From assembly GCA_024679065.1 (NCBI GenBank), contig JAGIQG010000022.1:26784001-26848000 (forward strand): a stretch of 64,000 bases of DNA, in the 5' to 3' direction. The DNA comes from Sphyrna mokarran. Taxonomy: Eukaryota. The position numbers are program-made. Shown piece by piece: positions 33,001 through 39,000 of the stretch. Within the stretch, counting starts at the first letter, position 1. Each line of letters begins with the position of its first letter.

Positions 33001-36000
33001 TCTTCATGATGAAGTTCTTAAGCTACACTATTCTGTTAAAATATATCTTCACTTGTAAGATTCTAATGTTTCCGTTTTACTTCCAAATGTGTTATTTTGT
33101 ATTTGTTTTACTTTGAACTGCATCTCCCACTAGTCCTGCCATCCCTTGTCTTCTGCACTTACTAATTCCCAATAGATTTCGTCAACTTTCAGTATCATTT
33201 CCTTGCTTTCTCTAACAGTTAGTAGCGAGCTCAAGATCCCCCTCTATAGGACATCACTCATTCTAGGAAATGTCTTTTTATCTTGCTTCTCTGCTTTTTG
33301 CCCTACAGCAACATAAACTTGGCTTTAAGCTGTGATTTCAATATTGTAACATGCAAGATGTGTTACAAAAATGTTGTCAAACAACATTTAGCACTGATCC
33401 AAATGAGGAGGGATTAGTTTAGGAGGCCAAACAGGTAAGCTTTAAGGAGTCTCTTAGAGACGGAGATATGGTGATGTTTATGGAGGAGAAATACAGAGCA
33501 TAGTACCTTGGTGGCTGAAGACATGATCACCTGTGGTGTAGTGATAAATATTGGGGATGTGCTAGAGACCAGAATTGGAGGGGCAGCAAGATCTCAGGTA
33601 ATTGTATGGCTACAGCTGGTTACAGTTCTTTCCAAGTTTGATGCTACTCTGATTCCATGTGCTTGAAATTGACTCTTAAGTTATTAAACAGATAGTCTAC
33701 CTGGTTCACTAATGTTCTTTAGGGAAGGAAATCTGCTATTCTTATCTGGTCTGACCTACATGTGACTCCAGACCTATAGCAATGTGGTTGACTCTGCAGG
33801 GATGGGTAATAAATATTGGCCTGGTCACTGATGCACACATCCCATGAACATTTTTTTTTAAATAATAATGTTAATGTTAAAACATTGGGTGCCTTTATTC
33901 AGTTGGCCTATGGAGGAACTTTGCCATCCAAGGCTTTAAATAATGCAGCCGTGACTGTACTTGCCAGACCCAATGTAGTTTTTATTGTCTGAAATTGAAA
34001 CCATGGTGCGAAATAAATTGAGCTAACCACTTCTGATTCTACTTCAAATAATTCAAAGCTGTGAAGAAATTTTGAAGGGATAAAGGGATGTAGTTTCACA
34101 TAAATCTGAGTCAGTATCTGACAGCTGCAAATGTAATATGTTACCTGAACTGAGACAAATGCTGGTCTGTTTAATACTTTTATTATCAGATCCAGCTGAT
34201 GTGTCTGGGACTTGCTGTTTTTTTATCAAACGTATGAAGGGACGTTTTCTCTCAATTGCCTTCCTCATGTTTGAGCCTTTCTCTGCTGTTGCATCTGATC
34301 ACTTCTGGTGTTTACTGTGACTCTTAATTGTCCAGAAATATGTTTTCGATTTCTTCTTATAACAGAAAATTTGATTGAATATTTGGCTGTGTGGGACTGA
34401 AGTACAATGTCTACACACTGGCTGTTTTATTCATTCTAGTCTGAAGAAAAATAACTTAGTCAAATGAGCAGACAAATGTAGAGTTAGCAGAGAGCTGTTT
34501 TCAACAAAGTTAGAAGAAGTTAATTGCGCCAAAGGTGTACTTCGCCCACAAAGTCGATATGTTTAATAATATTGTCCTTTCTGTTATTTAATTTTCAATC
34601 CATCAAATCCTACTTTTAAACCATTAATTGTGGTGGTGAGGGGGGGATGGTGGTGGGGGGAGACAAAGATAAAATGATGCAGCTTGACTGTGGCTTGTAT
34701 TCAATATTATTGATGCACTCAGCACTTCTTGAAAAATGGCTATACTAAGGTGTATATTGTTGGATTGTAAATTGATTCCTTCAAAACCTTACCATAGCTG
34801 TTGATCATTGTCAAGCTTTACAGAGCTAGAAAACATTCTTTCTCATCAACTCCCTTGCTTTGAAATTCTGTGAAAATTTTCTACAAGTCTTCAACCATGT
34901 TTTCATGACCCAGGTTTGTACCCACTTCTCTCCTCACTCGCCTTTTGTTCTACTCTCTGCCCTTTCCCTCATCAAAGCATCAATGGGGTCATGCCTGTGA
35001 TTATAGTGCTCCATTCTCCTGTGGCTTTTCCAATGCAGTTGGCAACTTCATTCTTCATTCCCAATTCTTTAGCTTCAGTGTCAATGCTGCAACTTTGTTC
35101 CATTTCTACCTGCTACAACAATACCAGTACATTTCCTGTGTTGGTATTTCAATCTTCGCTGTATGGTCATGTTTGGCATGCCTATAGAACATAAAACACT
35201 ACAGCACAAACAGGCCCTTCGGCCCACAAGTTGTGCCGAACACATCAAAACCTACCCAGCCATAGACCTATCTATAACCCCCAATCCCATTGGATCCCAT
35301 ATACTCATCCAGAAGTCTTTTAAAAGATCCCAGCGAGTTCGCCTCGACCACCACCGACGGCAGCCGATTCCATTCACTCACCACCCTCTGAGTGAAAAAC
35401 TTTTCCCTAGCATCCCCTCTGTACTTGCTTCCCTGCACCTTAAATCTGTGCCCTCTCGTCGCGACCATTTCAGCCCTGGGAAATAGTCTCTGAGAGTCCA
35501 CCCTATCTATTCCTCTCAACATCTTGTAAACCTCTATCAGGTCGCCTCTCAACCTTCGTCTCTCCAGGGAGAACAGTCCCAGCTCCCTCAACCTGTCTTC
35601 ATAAGGCATGCCTCCCAATCCAGGCAACATCCTTGTAAATCTCCTCTGCACCCTTTCAATAGCTTCCACGTCCTTCCTATAGTGAGGCGACCAGAACTGC
35701 GCACAGTACTCCAAGTGTGGTCTGACAAGGGTCCTATAAAGCTGCAGCATTACCTCCTGACTCCTGAACTCAATCCCTCAATGAATGAAGGCCAGTACAC
35801 CGTAAGCTTTCTTAACCACATCTTCCACCTGGGAGGCCGATTTGAGAGTCTTATGGACCCGGACCCCAAGATCCCTCTGCTCTTCCACACAGCTAAGACT
35901 CCTACCTTTGATAGTGTACTCATTCATCCCGTTGGATCTGCCAAAATGGACCACAACACATTTATCCGCGTTGAAGTCCATCTGCCACTTCTCCGCCCAG

Positions 36001-39000
36001 TCTTGCATCCTGTCGATGTCATGCTGCAACTTCTGACATCCCTCCAGACCATCCACAACACCACCGACCTTCGTGTCATCGGCGAACTTACTCACCCATC
36101 CCTCCACTTCCTTATCCAGGTCATTTATGAAAATGACAAACAGCAAGGGTCCTAGAACAGATCCCTGGGGCACTCCACTGGTGACCGACCTCCATGCAGA
36201 AAAAGAGCCATCCACAACCACCCTCTGCCTTCTGCAGGCAAGCCAGTTCTGGATCCACAAGGCCAAAGCCCCTTGGATCCCATGGCCTCTCACCTTTTCA
36301 AGAAGTCTTGCATGTGGGACCTTGTCAAATGCCTTGCTGAAGTCCATGTACACCACGTCCACTGCTCTTCCTTCGTCAATGTGTTCAGTCACATTTTCGA
36401 AGAACTCAATTAAGCTCGTAAGGCACGACCTGCCTTTTACAAAACCATGCTGATTATTTCTAATCAACCTAAACTTCCAACTCCAAATGCTCCACTCACC
36501 AGTGGAGTGCCCCAGGGATCTGTTCTAGGACCCTTGCTGTTTGTCATTTTCATAAATGACCTGGATGAGGAAGTGGAGGGATGGGTGAGTAAGTTCGCCG
36601 ATGACACGAAGGTCGGTGGTGTTGTGGATGGTCTGGAGGGATGTCAGAAGTTGCAGCATGACATCGACAGGATGCAAGACTGGGCGGAGAAGTGGCAGAT
36701 GGACTTCAACGCGGATAAATGTGTTGTGGTCCATTTTGGCAGATCCAACGGGATGAATGAGTACACTATCAAAGGTAGGAGTCTTAGCTGTGTGGAAGAG
36801 CAGAGGGATCTTGGGGTCCGGGTCCATAAGACTCTCAAATCGGCCTCCCAGGTGGAGGATGTGGTTAAGAAAGCTTACGGTGTACTGGCCTTCATTCATC
36901 GAGGGATTGAGTTCAGGAGTCAGGAGGTAATGCTGCAGCTTTATAGGACCCTTGTCAGACCACACTTGGAGTACTGTGCGCAGTTCTGGTCGCCTCACTA
37001 TAGGAAGGACGTGGAAGCTATTGAAAGGGTGCAGAGGAGATTTACAAGGATGTTGCCTGGATTGGGAGGCATGCCTTACGAAGACAGGTTGAGGGAGCTG
37101 GGACTGTTCTCCCTGGAGAGACGAAGGTTGAGAGGCGACCTGATAGAGGTTTGCAAGATGTTGAGAGGAATAGATAGGGTGGACTCTCAGAGACTATTTC
37201 CCAGGGCTGAAATGGTCGCGACGAGAGGGCACAGATTTAAGGTGCAGGGAAGCAAGTACAGAGGGGATGCTAGGGGAAAGTTTTTCACTCAGAGGGTGGT
37301 GAGTGAATGGAATCGGCTGCCGTCGGTGGTGGTCGAGGCGAACTCGCTGGGGTCTTTTAAAAGACTTCTGGATGAGTATATGGGATCCAATGGGATTGGG
37401 GGTTATAGATAGGTCTATGGCTGGGTAGGTTTTGATGTGTTCGGCACAACTTGAGGGCCGAAGGGCCTGTTTGTGCTGTAGTGTTCTATGTTCTATGTAA
37501 ATCTTGTCCCTCAGAAGCCTCTCTATCAGCTTACCAACCACTGAGGTCAGACTCAGCGGTCGGTAATTTCCAGGACTATCCCTGTTCCCTTTCTTGAAAA
37601 TAGGGACCACATCCGCAATCCTCCAATCCCCCGGAACCTCTCCCGTCTCCATCGACGACGCAAAGATCATCGCCACGGGCTCTGCAATGACATCCCTCAC
37701 CTCCCACAATAACCTGGGGTACATCCCATCTGGTCCCGGAGACTTGTCTATCTTGATAGCATTTAAAAGTTCTAACACATCCGCTTCCTTAATATCTACA
37801 TACTCAATCTTTTCAATCTGCCACAAACTTGTAGTGCATCCTCCCAGATCACTTTCCACCGTGAATACTGAGGCAAAGTACTCATTAAGCACCTCTGCCA
37901 TTTCTTCCGGTTCCATACAAACTTTTCCCCCTTCACCTTTTATAGGTCCTATCCCTTCTCTTCTCATCCTTTTACTTTTCACATATTTGTAGAAGGCCTT
38001 GGGATTCTCCTTAATCCTACCAGCCAAGGCCTTCTCATGACCCCTTCTGGCTCTCCTAATTTCCTTTTTAAGCTCTCTTCTATAAGCCTTATACTTCTCT
38101 AGATCCCCAACATCTCCTAGCTCTTTGAACCTTTTATACACCTTTCTTTTCTTCCTGACTAGGTTCACCACAGCCTTCATGCACCACGGTTCCCTCGACC
38201 TATCAAAACCTCCTTGTCTCACCGGAACGTTGTCGTGCAGAGCTCCAGACAAGCATTCCTTGCATATCTGCCACCTTCTTTCTGTGCTTTTCCCCAAGAA
38301 CACCTCCTTCCAGTTTATTCGCCCCAACATCTGCCTGATGTCTTCATATTTCCCCTTATTCCAGACAAACACCTTCCTAGCCTGCCTGATCCTATCCTTT
38401 TCCAATGCAAGGGTGAAGGAGATAGAATTATGATCTCCATCCCCAAGATGCTCTCCTACCGAGAGATCCATCACCTGTCCTGGTTCATTAGCTAGTACCA
38501 GGTCCAATACAGTACAGCCTTCAACTCTGGCCCCATCTTTTTCCTATTTGCATGCTGCCTTTGGTGATAGCATCCATAGTCACAAAATCAGTTTTCCTAT
38601 GCATGCTGACGACATCCAGTTTCCTCAGCATGCCAATACCCTTCATTCAAGAATTTATTTGAGCTCAACAAAAGTGAGAGCAAAGATATTCCACTAGACT
38701 TCTGCCTAAAGCTCTGCCTGCACCTTACTACCTAACTGCCTTTAGCTACTCTTTACCTGCTTCCACAGAGTGATACTGATGGTGTGGACGAAGTCAGACT
38801 GTCCTATCTGAACTTGAGCTAAATGTCAAACTTCTCTGCTTTTCCAGTACTGAGACAGGCTATACCCTTCACCACTATATTGAACACATCTCCAATCCAA
38901 GGCAGTCTCTATTCTGCATTACAACATTGTCTCACCACTGAGAGGTGTTCAATCTATATCCTCCACCACACCGTTGAACACTTTCTCTATCACATCTTGA

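What the first reader, a model, noticed from the sequence alone, without database searches (positions are those of the whole stretch)
35184..37496. 1-kb, ~99% identical inverted repeat made by a CR1 inserted antisense into its own subfamily
Seen: arms 35184-36184 (-) and 36496-37496 (+) are each 1001 bp with a 311-bp spacer, and I count about 9 mismatches by eye (e.g. DKE/DEE, TGA/CGA, EVYK/EVCK, REKF/RGKF). Removing 36493-37496 rejoins the host frame exactly (RDKIY|EHLE), with no TSD. Established: long, closely spaced, near-perfect inverted repeats are unstable in DNA and fold into dsRNA when transcribed. Inference: inside the presumed DOC2B intron this would form a 1-kb hairpin, a substrate for ADAR editing or Dicer, possibly making silencing RNAs against an active CR1 subfamily. 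It could be two successive insertions or one complex double-template event.
Basis: partly seen in the sequence, partly recalled or inferred. Interest (0 to 1): 0.72.

Follow-up and report, generated by a model that had tools for sequence, protein, structure and literature searches.

The report
Nested antisense CR1 copy makes hairpin
A young shark CR1 retrotransposon fragment landed backwards inside a slightly older copy of the same family within an intron of the DOC2B gene, creating a 1-kb inverted repeat that is real but is an ordinary by-product of a genome crowded with such elements.

Summary
Arms 35184-36184 and 36496-37496 are 1001 nt each, with 9 mismatches, no indels and a 311-nt spacer.

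The structure is a 5'-truncated CR1-type LINE on the minus strand (about 38543 to 35184). It is interrupted at 36492/36493 by a 1004-nt, 5'-truncated copy of the same subfamily on the plus strand.
- The insert ends at the element's own 3' hairpin and TTCTATG tandem tail.
- Host codons are colinear across the gap, and there is no target-site duplication.
- These are the marks of a second, independent retrotransposition. They do not fit an assembly fold-back, a DNA duplication or a one-step double-template event.

Outgroups place 6-7 of the 9 differences on the host and 1 on the insert, as expected if the host is older.

The window is elasmobranch. Two DOC2B exons with canonical splice sites lie downstream on the plus strand, so the repeat is very probably intronic. 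The pre-mRNA folds in silico into a 997-bp stem.

ADAR editing is a reasonable expectation. Dicer processing or silencing is untested. CR1-group elements fill 22-34% of elasmobranch genomes, so nested pairs are expected. Interest is low.

The parts
37497..38543 (-). Host CR1 copy, 5' part. An open frame of 349 codons ends ...LTSVVGKLIERLLRDKIY. The element is 5'-truncated somewhere near 38515-38549.
   Evidence: ORF list. The last 104 residues are 58% identical to residues 1-104 of the homologous RT P0012. No Pfam family passes its cut-off on this piece.
36496..37496 (+). Right arm: the inserted, 5'-truncated CR1 copy. It carries the RT C-terminal half in an open frame to 37412, then the 3' UTR.
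   Evidence: Pfam RVT_1 E 8.5e-12. Homologues up to 88% identical in elasmobranchs.
36493..36495 (+). Three extra bases (CAC) at the insert's 5' junction. They match neither the host target nor the element at that position.
   Evidence: Host copy at the equivalent place reads differently at 2 of the 3 bases.
36185..36492 (-). Spacer (loop): 308 nt of host RT coding sequence between the insertion point and the point where the insert's truncated 5' end maps on the host.
   Evidence: Pfam RVT_1 E 4.7e-26 on 35781-36485.
36468..36480 (-). Host frameshift zone: 13 nt where four homologues have 9. It lies directly 3' of the EHLE codons next to the insertion point.
   Evidence: Three-frame translation. 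Alignments to P0001, P0002, P0004 and P0012.
35184..36184 (-). Left arm: the 3'-terminal 1001 nt of the host CR1 copy (RT C-terminal half, 3' UTR, tail).
35778..35780 (-). Premature TGA in the host where the insert has CGA. This is a CpG-to-TpG change on the host lineage.
   Evidence: 9 of 13 homologues have R here and none has a stop.
37442..37478 (+). Predicted 3' UTR hairpin of the insert (8-bp outer stem, 5-bp inner stem). The same fold is predicted in the host copy.
   Evidence: centroid structure. It is not better than shuffles (z -1.1 and -0.8).
37484..37496 (+). 3' tail: two tandem TTCTATG units. The last G is ambiguous with the flank at 37497. The host tail at 35184-35196 is the same with one change.
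   Evidence: The amniote CR1 octamer is ATTCTRTG according to PMC8665684 (passage).
41980..42106 (+). Context: DOC2B exon (residues 194-237 of shark DOC2B, end of the first C2 domain). The acceptor is AG and the donor is GTGAGT.
   Evidence: Pfam C2 E 3.9e-6. 100% identical to DOC2B of three sharks..
49391..49548 (+). Context: next DOC2B exon (about residues 238-289). The acceptor is AG and the donor is GTAAGT.
   Evidence: tblastn. Sequence.

Best explanation
The repeat was made by two separate target-primed retrotranspositions of one young CR1-type LINE subfamily in an elasmobranch genome.

First, a 5'-truncated copy of about 2.3 kb inserted on the minus strand into a long DOC2B intron. Later, a second 5'-truncated copy of 1004 nt inserted on the plus strand into the RT-coding part of the first. 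The insertion point is 308 nt upstream, in host sense, of where the insert's own sequence begins on the host. All CR1 copies share their 3' end, so an antisense nested copy automatically gives an inverted repeat as long as the insert.

Shown: the anatomy, the junctions, the relative ages and the gene context.

Inferred: DOC2B pre-mRNA (plus strand) carries both arms and folds them into a duplex of about 1 kb. Such a duplex would be expected to be A-to-I hyper-edited in the nucleus. The locus is most likely a neutral or mildly harmful by-product rather than a selected device.
For: - **Anatomy.** Arms of 1001 nt with 9 mismatches and no indel.
- **Family.** Both copies carry RVT_1. Both are closest to elasmobranch RT sequences, then to bird and turtle ones (6624 of 8000 scored candidates at E<=1e-10; best identity 88%).
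- **Shared sequence stops at the element's own 3' terminus in both copies.** That terminus is a predicted hairpin followed by two TTCTATG units. Beyond it the flanks are unrelated.
- **Host is colinear across the insert.** The upstream piece ends at residue 104 of P0012 and the downstream piece resumes with EHLE. This matches ...IAEHLE... in P0001 and ...IYEYLE... in P0004.
- **Usual LINE insertion marks.** Both copies are 5'-truncated. The insert's 5' junction has three extra bases and there is no target-site duplication. [quoted passage not shown]
- **Relative age from protein outgroups.** The insert state is the common one at three sites: E in 5 of 7, R in 9 of 13, G in 12 of 12. The host state is the common one at one site: Y in 11 of 13.
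- **Relative age from the 68%-identical old copy in the window.** It agrees with the insert at element positions 362, 584, 781 and 857, and with the host at 658.
- **Polarity total.** Of the 9 differences, 6-7 are derived in the host, 1 in the insert, and 1-2 stay unresolved. The host also carries a premature stop and a frameshift.
- **Gene context.** There are two DOC2B exons with canonical splice sites on the plus strand, 4.5 and 11.9 kb downstream.
- **Fold.** The plus-strand 2313 nt has an MFE of -2222.7 kcal/mol with 997 of 1001 in-register arm pairs. The minus strand gives -2246.4 with 994 pairs. Three shuffles give -703 to -736.
- **Background.** CR1-group elements cover 22-34% of elasmobranch genomes (PMC13343379, passages). 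A-to-I editing mainly targets dsRNA of young repeats paired with a nearby inverted copy (PMC9989829, passages).
Against: - No empty-site allele, orthologous locus or sequencing read could be examined. Neither the order of events nor the assembly is directly proven.
- The 6-7 to 1 split of derived changes is only suggestive (two-sided binomial about 0.07 for 7:1, my arithmetic). It rests on proteins from other species at 63-88% identity and on one old copy whose alignment is loose at some sites.
- No close copy of the subfamily exists elsewhere in the window, so there is no subfamily consensus.
- Exons for DOC2B residues before 194 were not found in the window, so intronic location is inferred.
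- The 3' hairpin is not more stable than shuffles.
- Transcription and editing are not tested at all.
Confidence: 0.86

Rival explanations
1. Assembly artefact: a fold-back or chimeric long read, or a haplotype mix-up, produced an inverted duplicate that does not exist in the animal.
For: Near-perfect inverted duplicates are a known class of read and assembly artefact (general knowledge). No reads could be checked here. The window does contain one gap (N run 24379-24623), but it is 10.5 kb away.
Against: - A fold-back artefact is symmetric about one point and has no reason to stop at a retroelement's own 3' tail.
- Here the duplicate starts with three unrelated bases, ends at the TTCTATG tail, and sits between two host codons that are adjacent in homologues.
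- The arms differ at 9 sites in a pattern typical of biological decay: 2 CpG transitions and 8 of 9 transitions.
Confidence: 0.04
2. One complex retrotransposition event built host and insert together. The mechanism would be template switching between two RNAs, or a twin-priming-like reaction.
For: Both parts are of the same subfamily and nearly the same age (0.9% apart). The polarity split of the differences is not statistically decisive.
Against: - The reverse transcriptase would have to leave the first template, copy the last 1004 nt of a second template in the opposite orientation from a proper 3'-end start, and then resume on the first template at the very next codon.
- Twin priming, as described for L1 (recalled, not read here), inverts the adjoining upstream part of one RNA. 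It does not duplicate its 3' end. Here the inverted part duplicates the 3'-terminal 1 kb.
- The host alone carries a stop and a frameshift.
Confidence: 0.04
3. A DNA-level inverted duplication copied 1 kb of the host into itself. The cause would be a replication fork switch or break repair, without an RNA intermediate.
For: Inverted duplications of this size do arise by such routes (general knowledge).
Against: One end of the duplicated block coincides to the base with the retroelement's 3' terminus, that is, with the host's outer border. This is expected for reverse transcription from the RNA 3' end and would be a coincidence for a DNA copy. The insert retains ancestral states at sites where the host is changed, so it is not a copy of the present host sequence.
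Confidence: 0.02
4. The inverted repeat is kept because it works. The intronic hairpin would be diced into small RNAs, or feed a piRNA pathway, to silence the still active CR1 subfamily. This concerns function and is compatible with the nested-insertion origin.
For: The duplex is about 1 kb and nearly perfect on either strand. It matches a subfamily young enough to be possibly active: the insert's frame is open through the RT C-terminal half. Hairpin-derived endogenous siRNAs are known in flies and mouse oocytes (recalled, not read here).
Against: - There is no sign of selection.
- The copy is so young that persistence needs no explanation.
- Nuclear intronic duplexes are expected to be edited by ADAR, which works against dicing (general knowledge).
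- Rfam has no match in 30000-43000.
- No small-RNA data are available.
Confidence: 0.05

Closest known systems
Nested LINE-in-LINE insertions (TE-in-TE) in repeat-rich vertebrate genomes
   Same: A younger 5'-truncated copy interrupts an older copy, the host is colinear across the insert, and the insert ends at its own 3' tail. The insertion is by target-primed reverse transcription.
   Different: Host and insert belong to the same very young subfamily, are antisense to each other and overlap in sequence content. The result is a 1-kb, 99% inverted repeat rather than a mere interruption.
Inverted Alu pairs in human introns and 3' UTRs, and inverted young repeats in other metazoans, as ADAR substrates (PMC9989829, passages read)
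   Same: Two nearby inverted copies of a young repeat lie within one transcription unit and can pair within one molecule.
   Different: The arms are about three times longer than an Alu and far more similar (99%). The repeat is a LINE in a shark. Editing was not observed here.
L1 twin-priming inversions
   Same: A LINE insertion with one part inverted relative to the other.
   Different: Twin priming inverts the adjoining upstream segment of one RNA. It does not duplicate the 3' end and does not leave the flanking element colinear. That defining feature is not met here.
Amniote CR1 elements (PMC8665684, PMC4316615, passages read)
   Same: The RT is homologous to bird and turtle CR1 RTs (about 50-55% identity). 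Both copies are heavily 5'-truncated. A 3' hairpin is followed by a short tandem tail whose unit TTCTATG equals positions 2-8 of the amniote octamer ATTCTRTG.
   Different: The tail period is 7 rather than 8, with only two units. The host organism is an elasmobranch. Assignment within the CR1 group (canonical CR1 versus Zenon) was not tested against reference elements.
Hairpin-RNA (hpRNA) and endo-siRNA loci of Drosophila and mouse oocytes (recalled, not read here)
   Same: A long inverted repeat that can give an intramolecular dsRNA matching a transposon.
   Different: There is no small-RNA evidence. The repeat is intronic in a neuronal gene, is very young and shows no conservation.

Membership tests
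CR1-group LINE (non-LTR retrotransposon) | Reverse transcriptase domain homologous to CR1 RTs | tested here: met
   Pfam RVT_1 in the host (E 4.7e-26) and the insert (E 8.5e-12). Best relatives are elasmobranch, then bird and turtle RT proteins at 44-56% identity. The sources give these proteins generic names; that the bird and turtle ones are CR1 is my inference.
CR1-group LINE (non-LTR retrotransposon) | Short tandem (octamer-type) microsatellite at the 3' end | tested here: met
   Two TTCTATG units end both copies. The unit equals positions 2-8 of ATTCTRTG quoted in PMC8665684. The period is 7, not 8.
CR1-group LINE (non-LTR retrotransposon) | Stable hairpin in the 3' UTR just upstream of the microsatellite | tested here: inconclusive
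   The same 8+5-bp hairpin is predicted in both copies, but z-scores are only -1.1 and -0.8 against shuffles. The one arm difference in this stretch (element position 959) falls in an internal loop.
CR1-group LINE (non-LTR retrotransposon) | Apurinic-type endonuclease domain and ORF1 | tested here: inconclusive
   Both copies are 5'-truncated. Pfam finds no endonuclease family on 37497-38543. Absence in truncated copies says nothing about the family.
CR1-group LINE (non-LTR retrotransposon) | Canonical CR1 rather than Zenon, L2 or Rex1 within the CR1 group | not tested
   No reference elements of these clades were at hand. PMC13343379 reports CR1 and Zenon in elasmobranchs and no L2 in galeomorph sharks.
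Independent nested retrotransposition (TE-in-TE) | Host element colinear across the insert, nothing lost or duplicated | tested here: met
   ...RDKIY | EHLE..., with no gap against four homologues.
Independent nested retrotransposition (TE-in-TE) | Insert bounded by its own 3' terminus, 5'-truncated at the other end | tested here: met
Independent nested retrotransposition (TE-in-TE) | Existence of the uninterrupted host (empty site) in an allele or a related species | not testable with these tools
L1-type twin-priming inversion | The inverted segment is the adjoining upstream part of the same RNA, not a second copy of its 3' end | tested here: not met
   The inverted segment duplicates the 3'-terminal 1001 nt of the host.
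ADAR-edited inverted-repeat dsRNA | Both arms in one transcription unit and able to pair intramolecularly | tested here: met
   In silico only. DOC2B exons lie on the plus strand downstream. 997 of 1001 in-register pairs form. That transcription runs through the repeat is inferred.
ADAR-edited inverted-repeat dsRNA | Clusters of A-to-G RNA-DNA differences on the arms | not testable with these tools
   No RNA-seq.
Hairpin-RNA / endo-siRNA locus | Small RNAs of defined length from both arms | not testable with these tools
   No small-RNA data. Rfam has no match in 30000-43000.

The most novel reading that the evidence does not exclude
The newborn hairpin in the DOC2B intron escapes complete ADAR editing. 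It is processed into small RNAs that act in trans on the still active CR1 subfamily. An accidental self-nested insertion would then be the first step by which a shark genome acquires a silencing trigger against a currently expanding LINE.
Probability: 0.05. Interest if true: 0.55.

Novelty: new member of a known kind. Interest (0 to 1): 0.17.

Why it matters
The locus mostly shows what a genome that is a quarter to a third CR1-group sequence produces by chance: a young LINE copy nested backwards in a sibling copy.

It could serve as a clean natural test substrate, because it is 1 kb long, 99% identical, has a known loop and sits inside a neuronal gene. It would let one ask whether elasmobranch ADARs hyper-edit long intronic duplexes, whether any of the duplex reaches Dicer, and how long such repeats survive at the DNA level. 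It also marks a CR1 subfamily that was active very recently in this species.

None of this changes current understanding of LINE biology or RNA editing.

Tried and rejected
- **An imprint of ADAR editing on the insert.** This would mean A-to-G changes fixed through an edited RNA template. All five A/G differences have G in the insert. Outgroups show G to be the older state at four of them, element positions 72, 362, 781 and 857. A is older only at 658. The pattern is therefore mostly G-to-A and C-to-T decay of the host, and the idea is rejected.
- **The insert as a copy of the present host sequence.** Rejected, because the insert lacks the host's derived states, including the stop. A copy made right after the host inserted cannot be excluded.
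- **Gene conversion keeping the arms alike.** There is no sign of it. The 9 differences are spread over the whole arm, with a longest identical run of 289 nt (positions). Without a subfamily consensus this cannot be excluded.
- **A subfamily consensus from the window.** Not possible. The only other related stretch is 45334-46029, at 68% identity over 704 nt.
- **Upstream DOC2B exons.**
  - Pfam was run on the 150 longest of 276 stop-to-stop ORFs of 60 aa or more. Those 276 were left after dropping 17 ORFs lying inside 35100-38600. Two of the 150 had a hit: C2 and ALKBH8_N. The other 126 ORFs, and all ORFs under 60 aa, were not scanned.
  - tblastn with three shark DOC2B proteins found only the two exons at E<=0.1. 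At E<=50 I inspected only the plus-strand hits of one protein, P0124.
- **Rfam on 30000-43000.** No family at gathering score.
- **A target-site duplication for the host.** GCATGC occurs at 38550-38555 and at 35176-35181 next to the two host ends. Six bases can match by chance, and the host 5' end is not defined to the base, so this is left open.
- **Not used.** Structure prediction, complex prediction, protein atlas, and the phage, plasmid and E. coli collections do not bear on this locus. The genome-contig collection holds only bacteria and archaea. Supplementary tables of the papers read were not seen. This includes the per-species CR1 tables of PMC13343379, which might give copy numbers for a chance expectation.

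
Full report
**Observation.** The repeat is present exactly as described. The repeat finder reports a single inverted pair in 33000-40000: arms 35184-36184 and 36496-37496, 1001 nt each, 99% complementary, 311 nt apart. An ungapped comparison finds 9 mismatches of 1001 and no indel.
- Five are A(host)/G(insert), three are T/C and one is T/A, in element sense.
- Two of the T/C sites are CpG in the insert.
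- GC content (0.47-0.51 against 0.35-0.41 in the flanks) and the sign of GC skew mark the same borders.
- Over the whole window this is the only long, young repeat. The next inverted pair is 95 nt at 79%, and the longest direct family is 281 nt at 77%.
- The window holds one N run (24379-24623), which I left alone. The window is not human.

**What the two copies are.** Both arms encode the C-terminal half of a reverse transcriptase. Pfam RVT_1 scores E 4.7e-26 on host 35781-36485 and 8.5e-12 on the insert. A search with the insert's 305-residue frame returned 6624 proteins at E<=1e-10 among 8000 scored candidates.
- The best named hits are elasmobranch. Mustelus asterias reaches 88% identity over 75% of the query. 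Stegostoma, Chiloscyllium, Mobula, Hypanus, Pristis and Leucoraja follow.
- Many bird and turtle RT proteins follow at about 44-56% identity.
- Both copies end with a predicted hairpin and then two tandem TTCTATG units. That unit equals positions 2-8 of the amniote CR1 octamer ATTCTRTG (PMC8665684, passages). The hairpin is the same in both copies but is not more stable than shuffles (z -1.1 and -0.8).

I file the element in the CR1 group, probably canonical CR1. I could not test it against Zenon references, which PMC13343379 (passages) reports in elasmobranchs.

**Anatomy.** On the minus strand an open frame of 349 codons runs from 38543 to 37497 and ends ...LTSVVGKLIERLLRDKIY. Its last 104 residues align without a gap to residues 1-104 of the homologue P0012 (58% identity).
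- The plus-strand copy follows: three unrelated bases at 36493-36495, then 1001 nt identical in register to the host's last 1001 nt.
- At 36492 the minus-strand host resumes with EHLE. This matches ...IAEHLE... in P0001 and ...IYEYLE... in P0004.
- The RT frame then aligns from residue 112 of P0012 onward (65% identity over 229 residues).
- No codon of the host is lost or duplicated at the insertion point, and no direct repeat flanks the insert.
Four codons after the junction the host frame hits LEV-stop, and the RT frame continues one base out of phase. The host has 25 nt between the Y codon and LIR where four homologues have 21.
- The host also has TGA at 35778-35780 where the insert has CGA.
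- The host is 5'-truncated near 38515-38549, and the insert at 1004 nt. Both were dead on arrival, as PMC4316615 says is usual for CR1 (passages).

**Origin.** The shared sequence stops to the base at the retroelement's own 3' terminus in both copies. The insert sits between two adjacent host codons. Its 5' junction carries a few extra bases. This is what a second, independent target-primed reverse transcription into the first copy produces.
- A fold-back assembly artefact or a DNA-level inverted duplication has no reason to end at the element's tail.
- A single double-template event would need the enzyme to return to the first RNA at the very next codon.
- Twin priming, as I recall it for L1, inverts the adjoining upstream part of one RNA rather than duplicating its 3' end. 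That feature is not met.

All CR1 copies share their 3' ends, so any antisense nested copy gives an inverted repeat as long as the insert. The 308-nt host stretch in the loop simply reflects where the insert happened to land.

**Relative age.** I polarised the 9 differences two ways.

| Element position | Host / insert | Commonest state in protein homologues | Derived on |
|---|---|---|---|
| 72 | K / E | E in 5 of 7 with this region (others M, A) | host |
| 405 | stop / R | R in 9 of 13 (3 Q, 1 C) | host |
| 658 | Y / C | Y in 11 of 13 (1 C, 1 F) | insert |
| 781 | E / G | G in 12 of 12 (P0022 dropped, unalignable there) | host |

- The old CR1-like copy at 45334-46029 (68% identical) has the insert's base at 362, 584, 781 and 857 and the host's base at 658. 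It is uninformative at 72, 405, 959 and 991.
- Position 991 lies in the tail, where the repeat unit itself suggests that the insert's C is original.
- In sum, 6-7 changes fall on the host lineage, 1 on the insert and 1-2 stay unresolved. This fits an older host, but it is only suggestive statistically.
- It also disposes of the idea that the A/G differences are an ADAR imprint on the insert. Four of the five are G-to-A in the host.
- The total divergence of 0.9% makes both copies very young. I give no date, because I have no measured substitution rate for this species.

**Gene context.** A Pfam scan covered the 150 longest of 276 ORFs of 60 aa or more outside the element. It found a C2-domain piece on the plus strand at 41882-42226 (E 3.9e-6).
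- The 42-residue exon peptide, searched alone, is 100% identical to DOC2B of Heterodontus francisci, Stegostoma tigrinum and Mustelus asterias. That search returned 618 proteins at E<=0.001 among 622 candidates.
- tblastn with three shark DOC2B proteins places residues 194-237 at 41980-42106 and about 238-289 at 49391-48548+1000, that is 49391-49548.
- The first exon has an AG acceptor and a GTGAGT donor. The second has an AG acceptor and a GTAAGT donor.
- No credible exon for residues before 194 or after 289 is in the window.

The repeat therefore lies 4.5 kb upstream of a mid-gene exon, in an intron of at least 42 kb. It is intronic by inference, not by sight of both flanking exons.

**Predicted behaviour.** The DOC2B pre-mRNA would carry the antisense host arm first and the sense insert arm second.
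- ViennaRNA folds the 2313 nt of the plus strand at -2222.7 kcal/mol, with 997 of 1001 in-register arm pairs. Five of the differences become G-U pairs.
- The minus strand folds at -2246.4 with 994 pairs. Three shuffles give -703 to -736.
- Zhang et al. [quoted passage not shown] Hyper-editing of this duplex is therefore a fair expectation if the intron is transcribed.
- That DOC2B is a neuronal gene is recalled knowledge from mammals.
- Dicer products or silencing of CR1 remain pure conjecture.

**DNA-level stability.** In yeast Alu-repeat assays, going from a 12-bp to a 100-bp spacer lowered recombination 300-fold. Going from 12 to 200 bp lowered gross rearrangements about 20-fold (PMC10164571, passages). 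Here the spacer is 311 nt, although the arms are three times longer than an Alu.

**How surprising it is.** CR1-group elements cover 22-34% of elasmobranch genomes (PMC13343379, passages). Roughly one new insertion in four lands in such an element if targets are random. Nestings within one active subfamily are expected in numbers that depend on its copy number, which I could not measure. The case is a neat, very young example of a known kind and not a new kind of feature.

**Verdict.**
- The structural interpretation is supported: two successive insertions, confidence about 0.86.
- The functional interpretation is untested and, in its silencing form, unlikely (about 0.05).
- Interest is 0.17.

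Noticed in passing
window 36490-36507: The insert's 5' junction forms a small palindrome: a 7-nt stem (36490-36496) pairs with 36501-36507 around a 4-nt loop. The left half is made of the last three host bases, the three extra bases and the first insert base. The extra bases may therefore have been templated by snap-back of the cDNA end, followed by joining at a 3-nt microhomology. This could also be chance (roughly 1 in several hundred by my estimate).
   Followed up: partly
window 36468-36480 (minus strand): The host's frameshift (13 nt where four homologues have 9) lies only 12 nt from the insertion point. Whether it predates the insertion or is a repair scar of it cannot be told without a subfamily consensus.
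   Followed up: partly
proteins P0001 and P0007: Two NCBI proteins are labelled 'reverse transcriptase family protein' of Klebsiella pneumoniae and Proteus mirabilis. They sit on contigs of 1602 and 1687 bp and are 73% and 65% identical to this shark CR1 RT over the full query. They look like fish DNA contaminating bacterial assemblies.
   Followed up: no
proteins P0003, P0006, P0080: Some elasmobranch gene models carry a CR1 RT segment: 'adenylate kinase 2 isoform X1' (Stegostoma), a zinc-finger protein (Mustelus) and 'P-selectin glycoprotein ligand 1' (Hypanus). They are probably annotation chimeras or exonised LINE pieces.
   Followed up: no
window 27471-27548, 50308-50379, 51790-51876 (one orientation); 6307-6393, 8171-8268, 41025-41111, 57965-58064 (the other): This is a family of SINE-like repeats of about 70-95 nt, 64-92% alike. 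Their head looks tRNA-derived to my eye (not tested). They give most of the short inverted pairs in the window.
   Followed up: no
window 9960-10400, 13876-14340, 20548-21095, 29861-30182, 61656-62262: An older interspersed repeat family is present in five copies in the same orientation, 60-87% alike. The copy at 62052-62399 (minus-strand ORF) hits Pfam ALKBH8_N (E 3.5e-7). I recall that this profile also matches the C-terminal part of LINE reverse transcriptases.
   Followed up: no
window 55334-55412 and 55434-55512: A short inverted repeat has 79-nt arms, 87% complementary, with only a 21-nt spacer. It is a compact hairpin-forming element of unknown kind in the DOC2B region.
   Followed up: no
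window 38544-39499: Strongly negative GC skew (-0.31 to -0.42) continues for about 1 kb beyond the host CR1's truncated 5' end. No ORF or protein match there was seen. It is possibly another, older minus-strand element into which the host inserted.
   Followed up: no
window 45334-46029 (+): An old CR1-like fragment is 68% identical to the young subfamily over 704 nt. It lies in the intron between the two DOC2B exons. It was used here only as a weak outgroup.
   Followed up: partly
window 35176-35181 and 38550-38555: The hexamer GCATGC lies next to both ends of the host CR1 copy. It could be a 6-bp target-site duplication of the host, or chance.
   Followed up: partly
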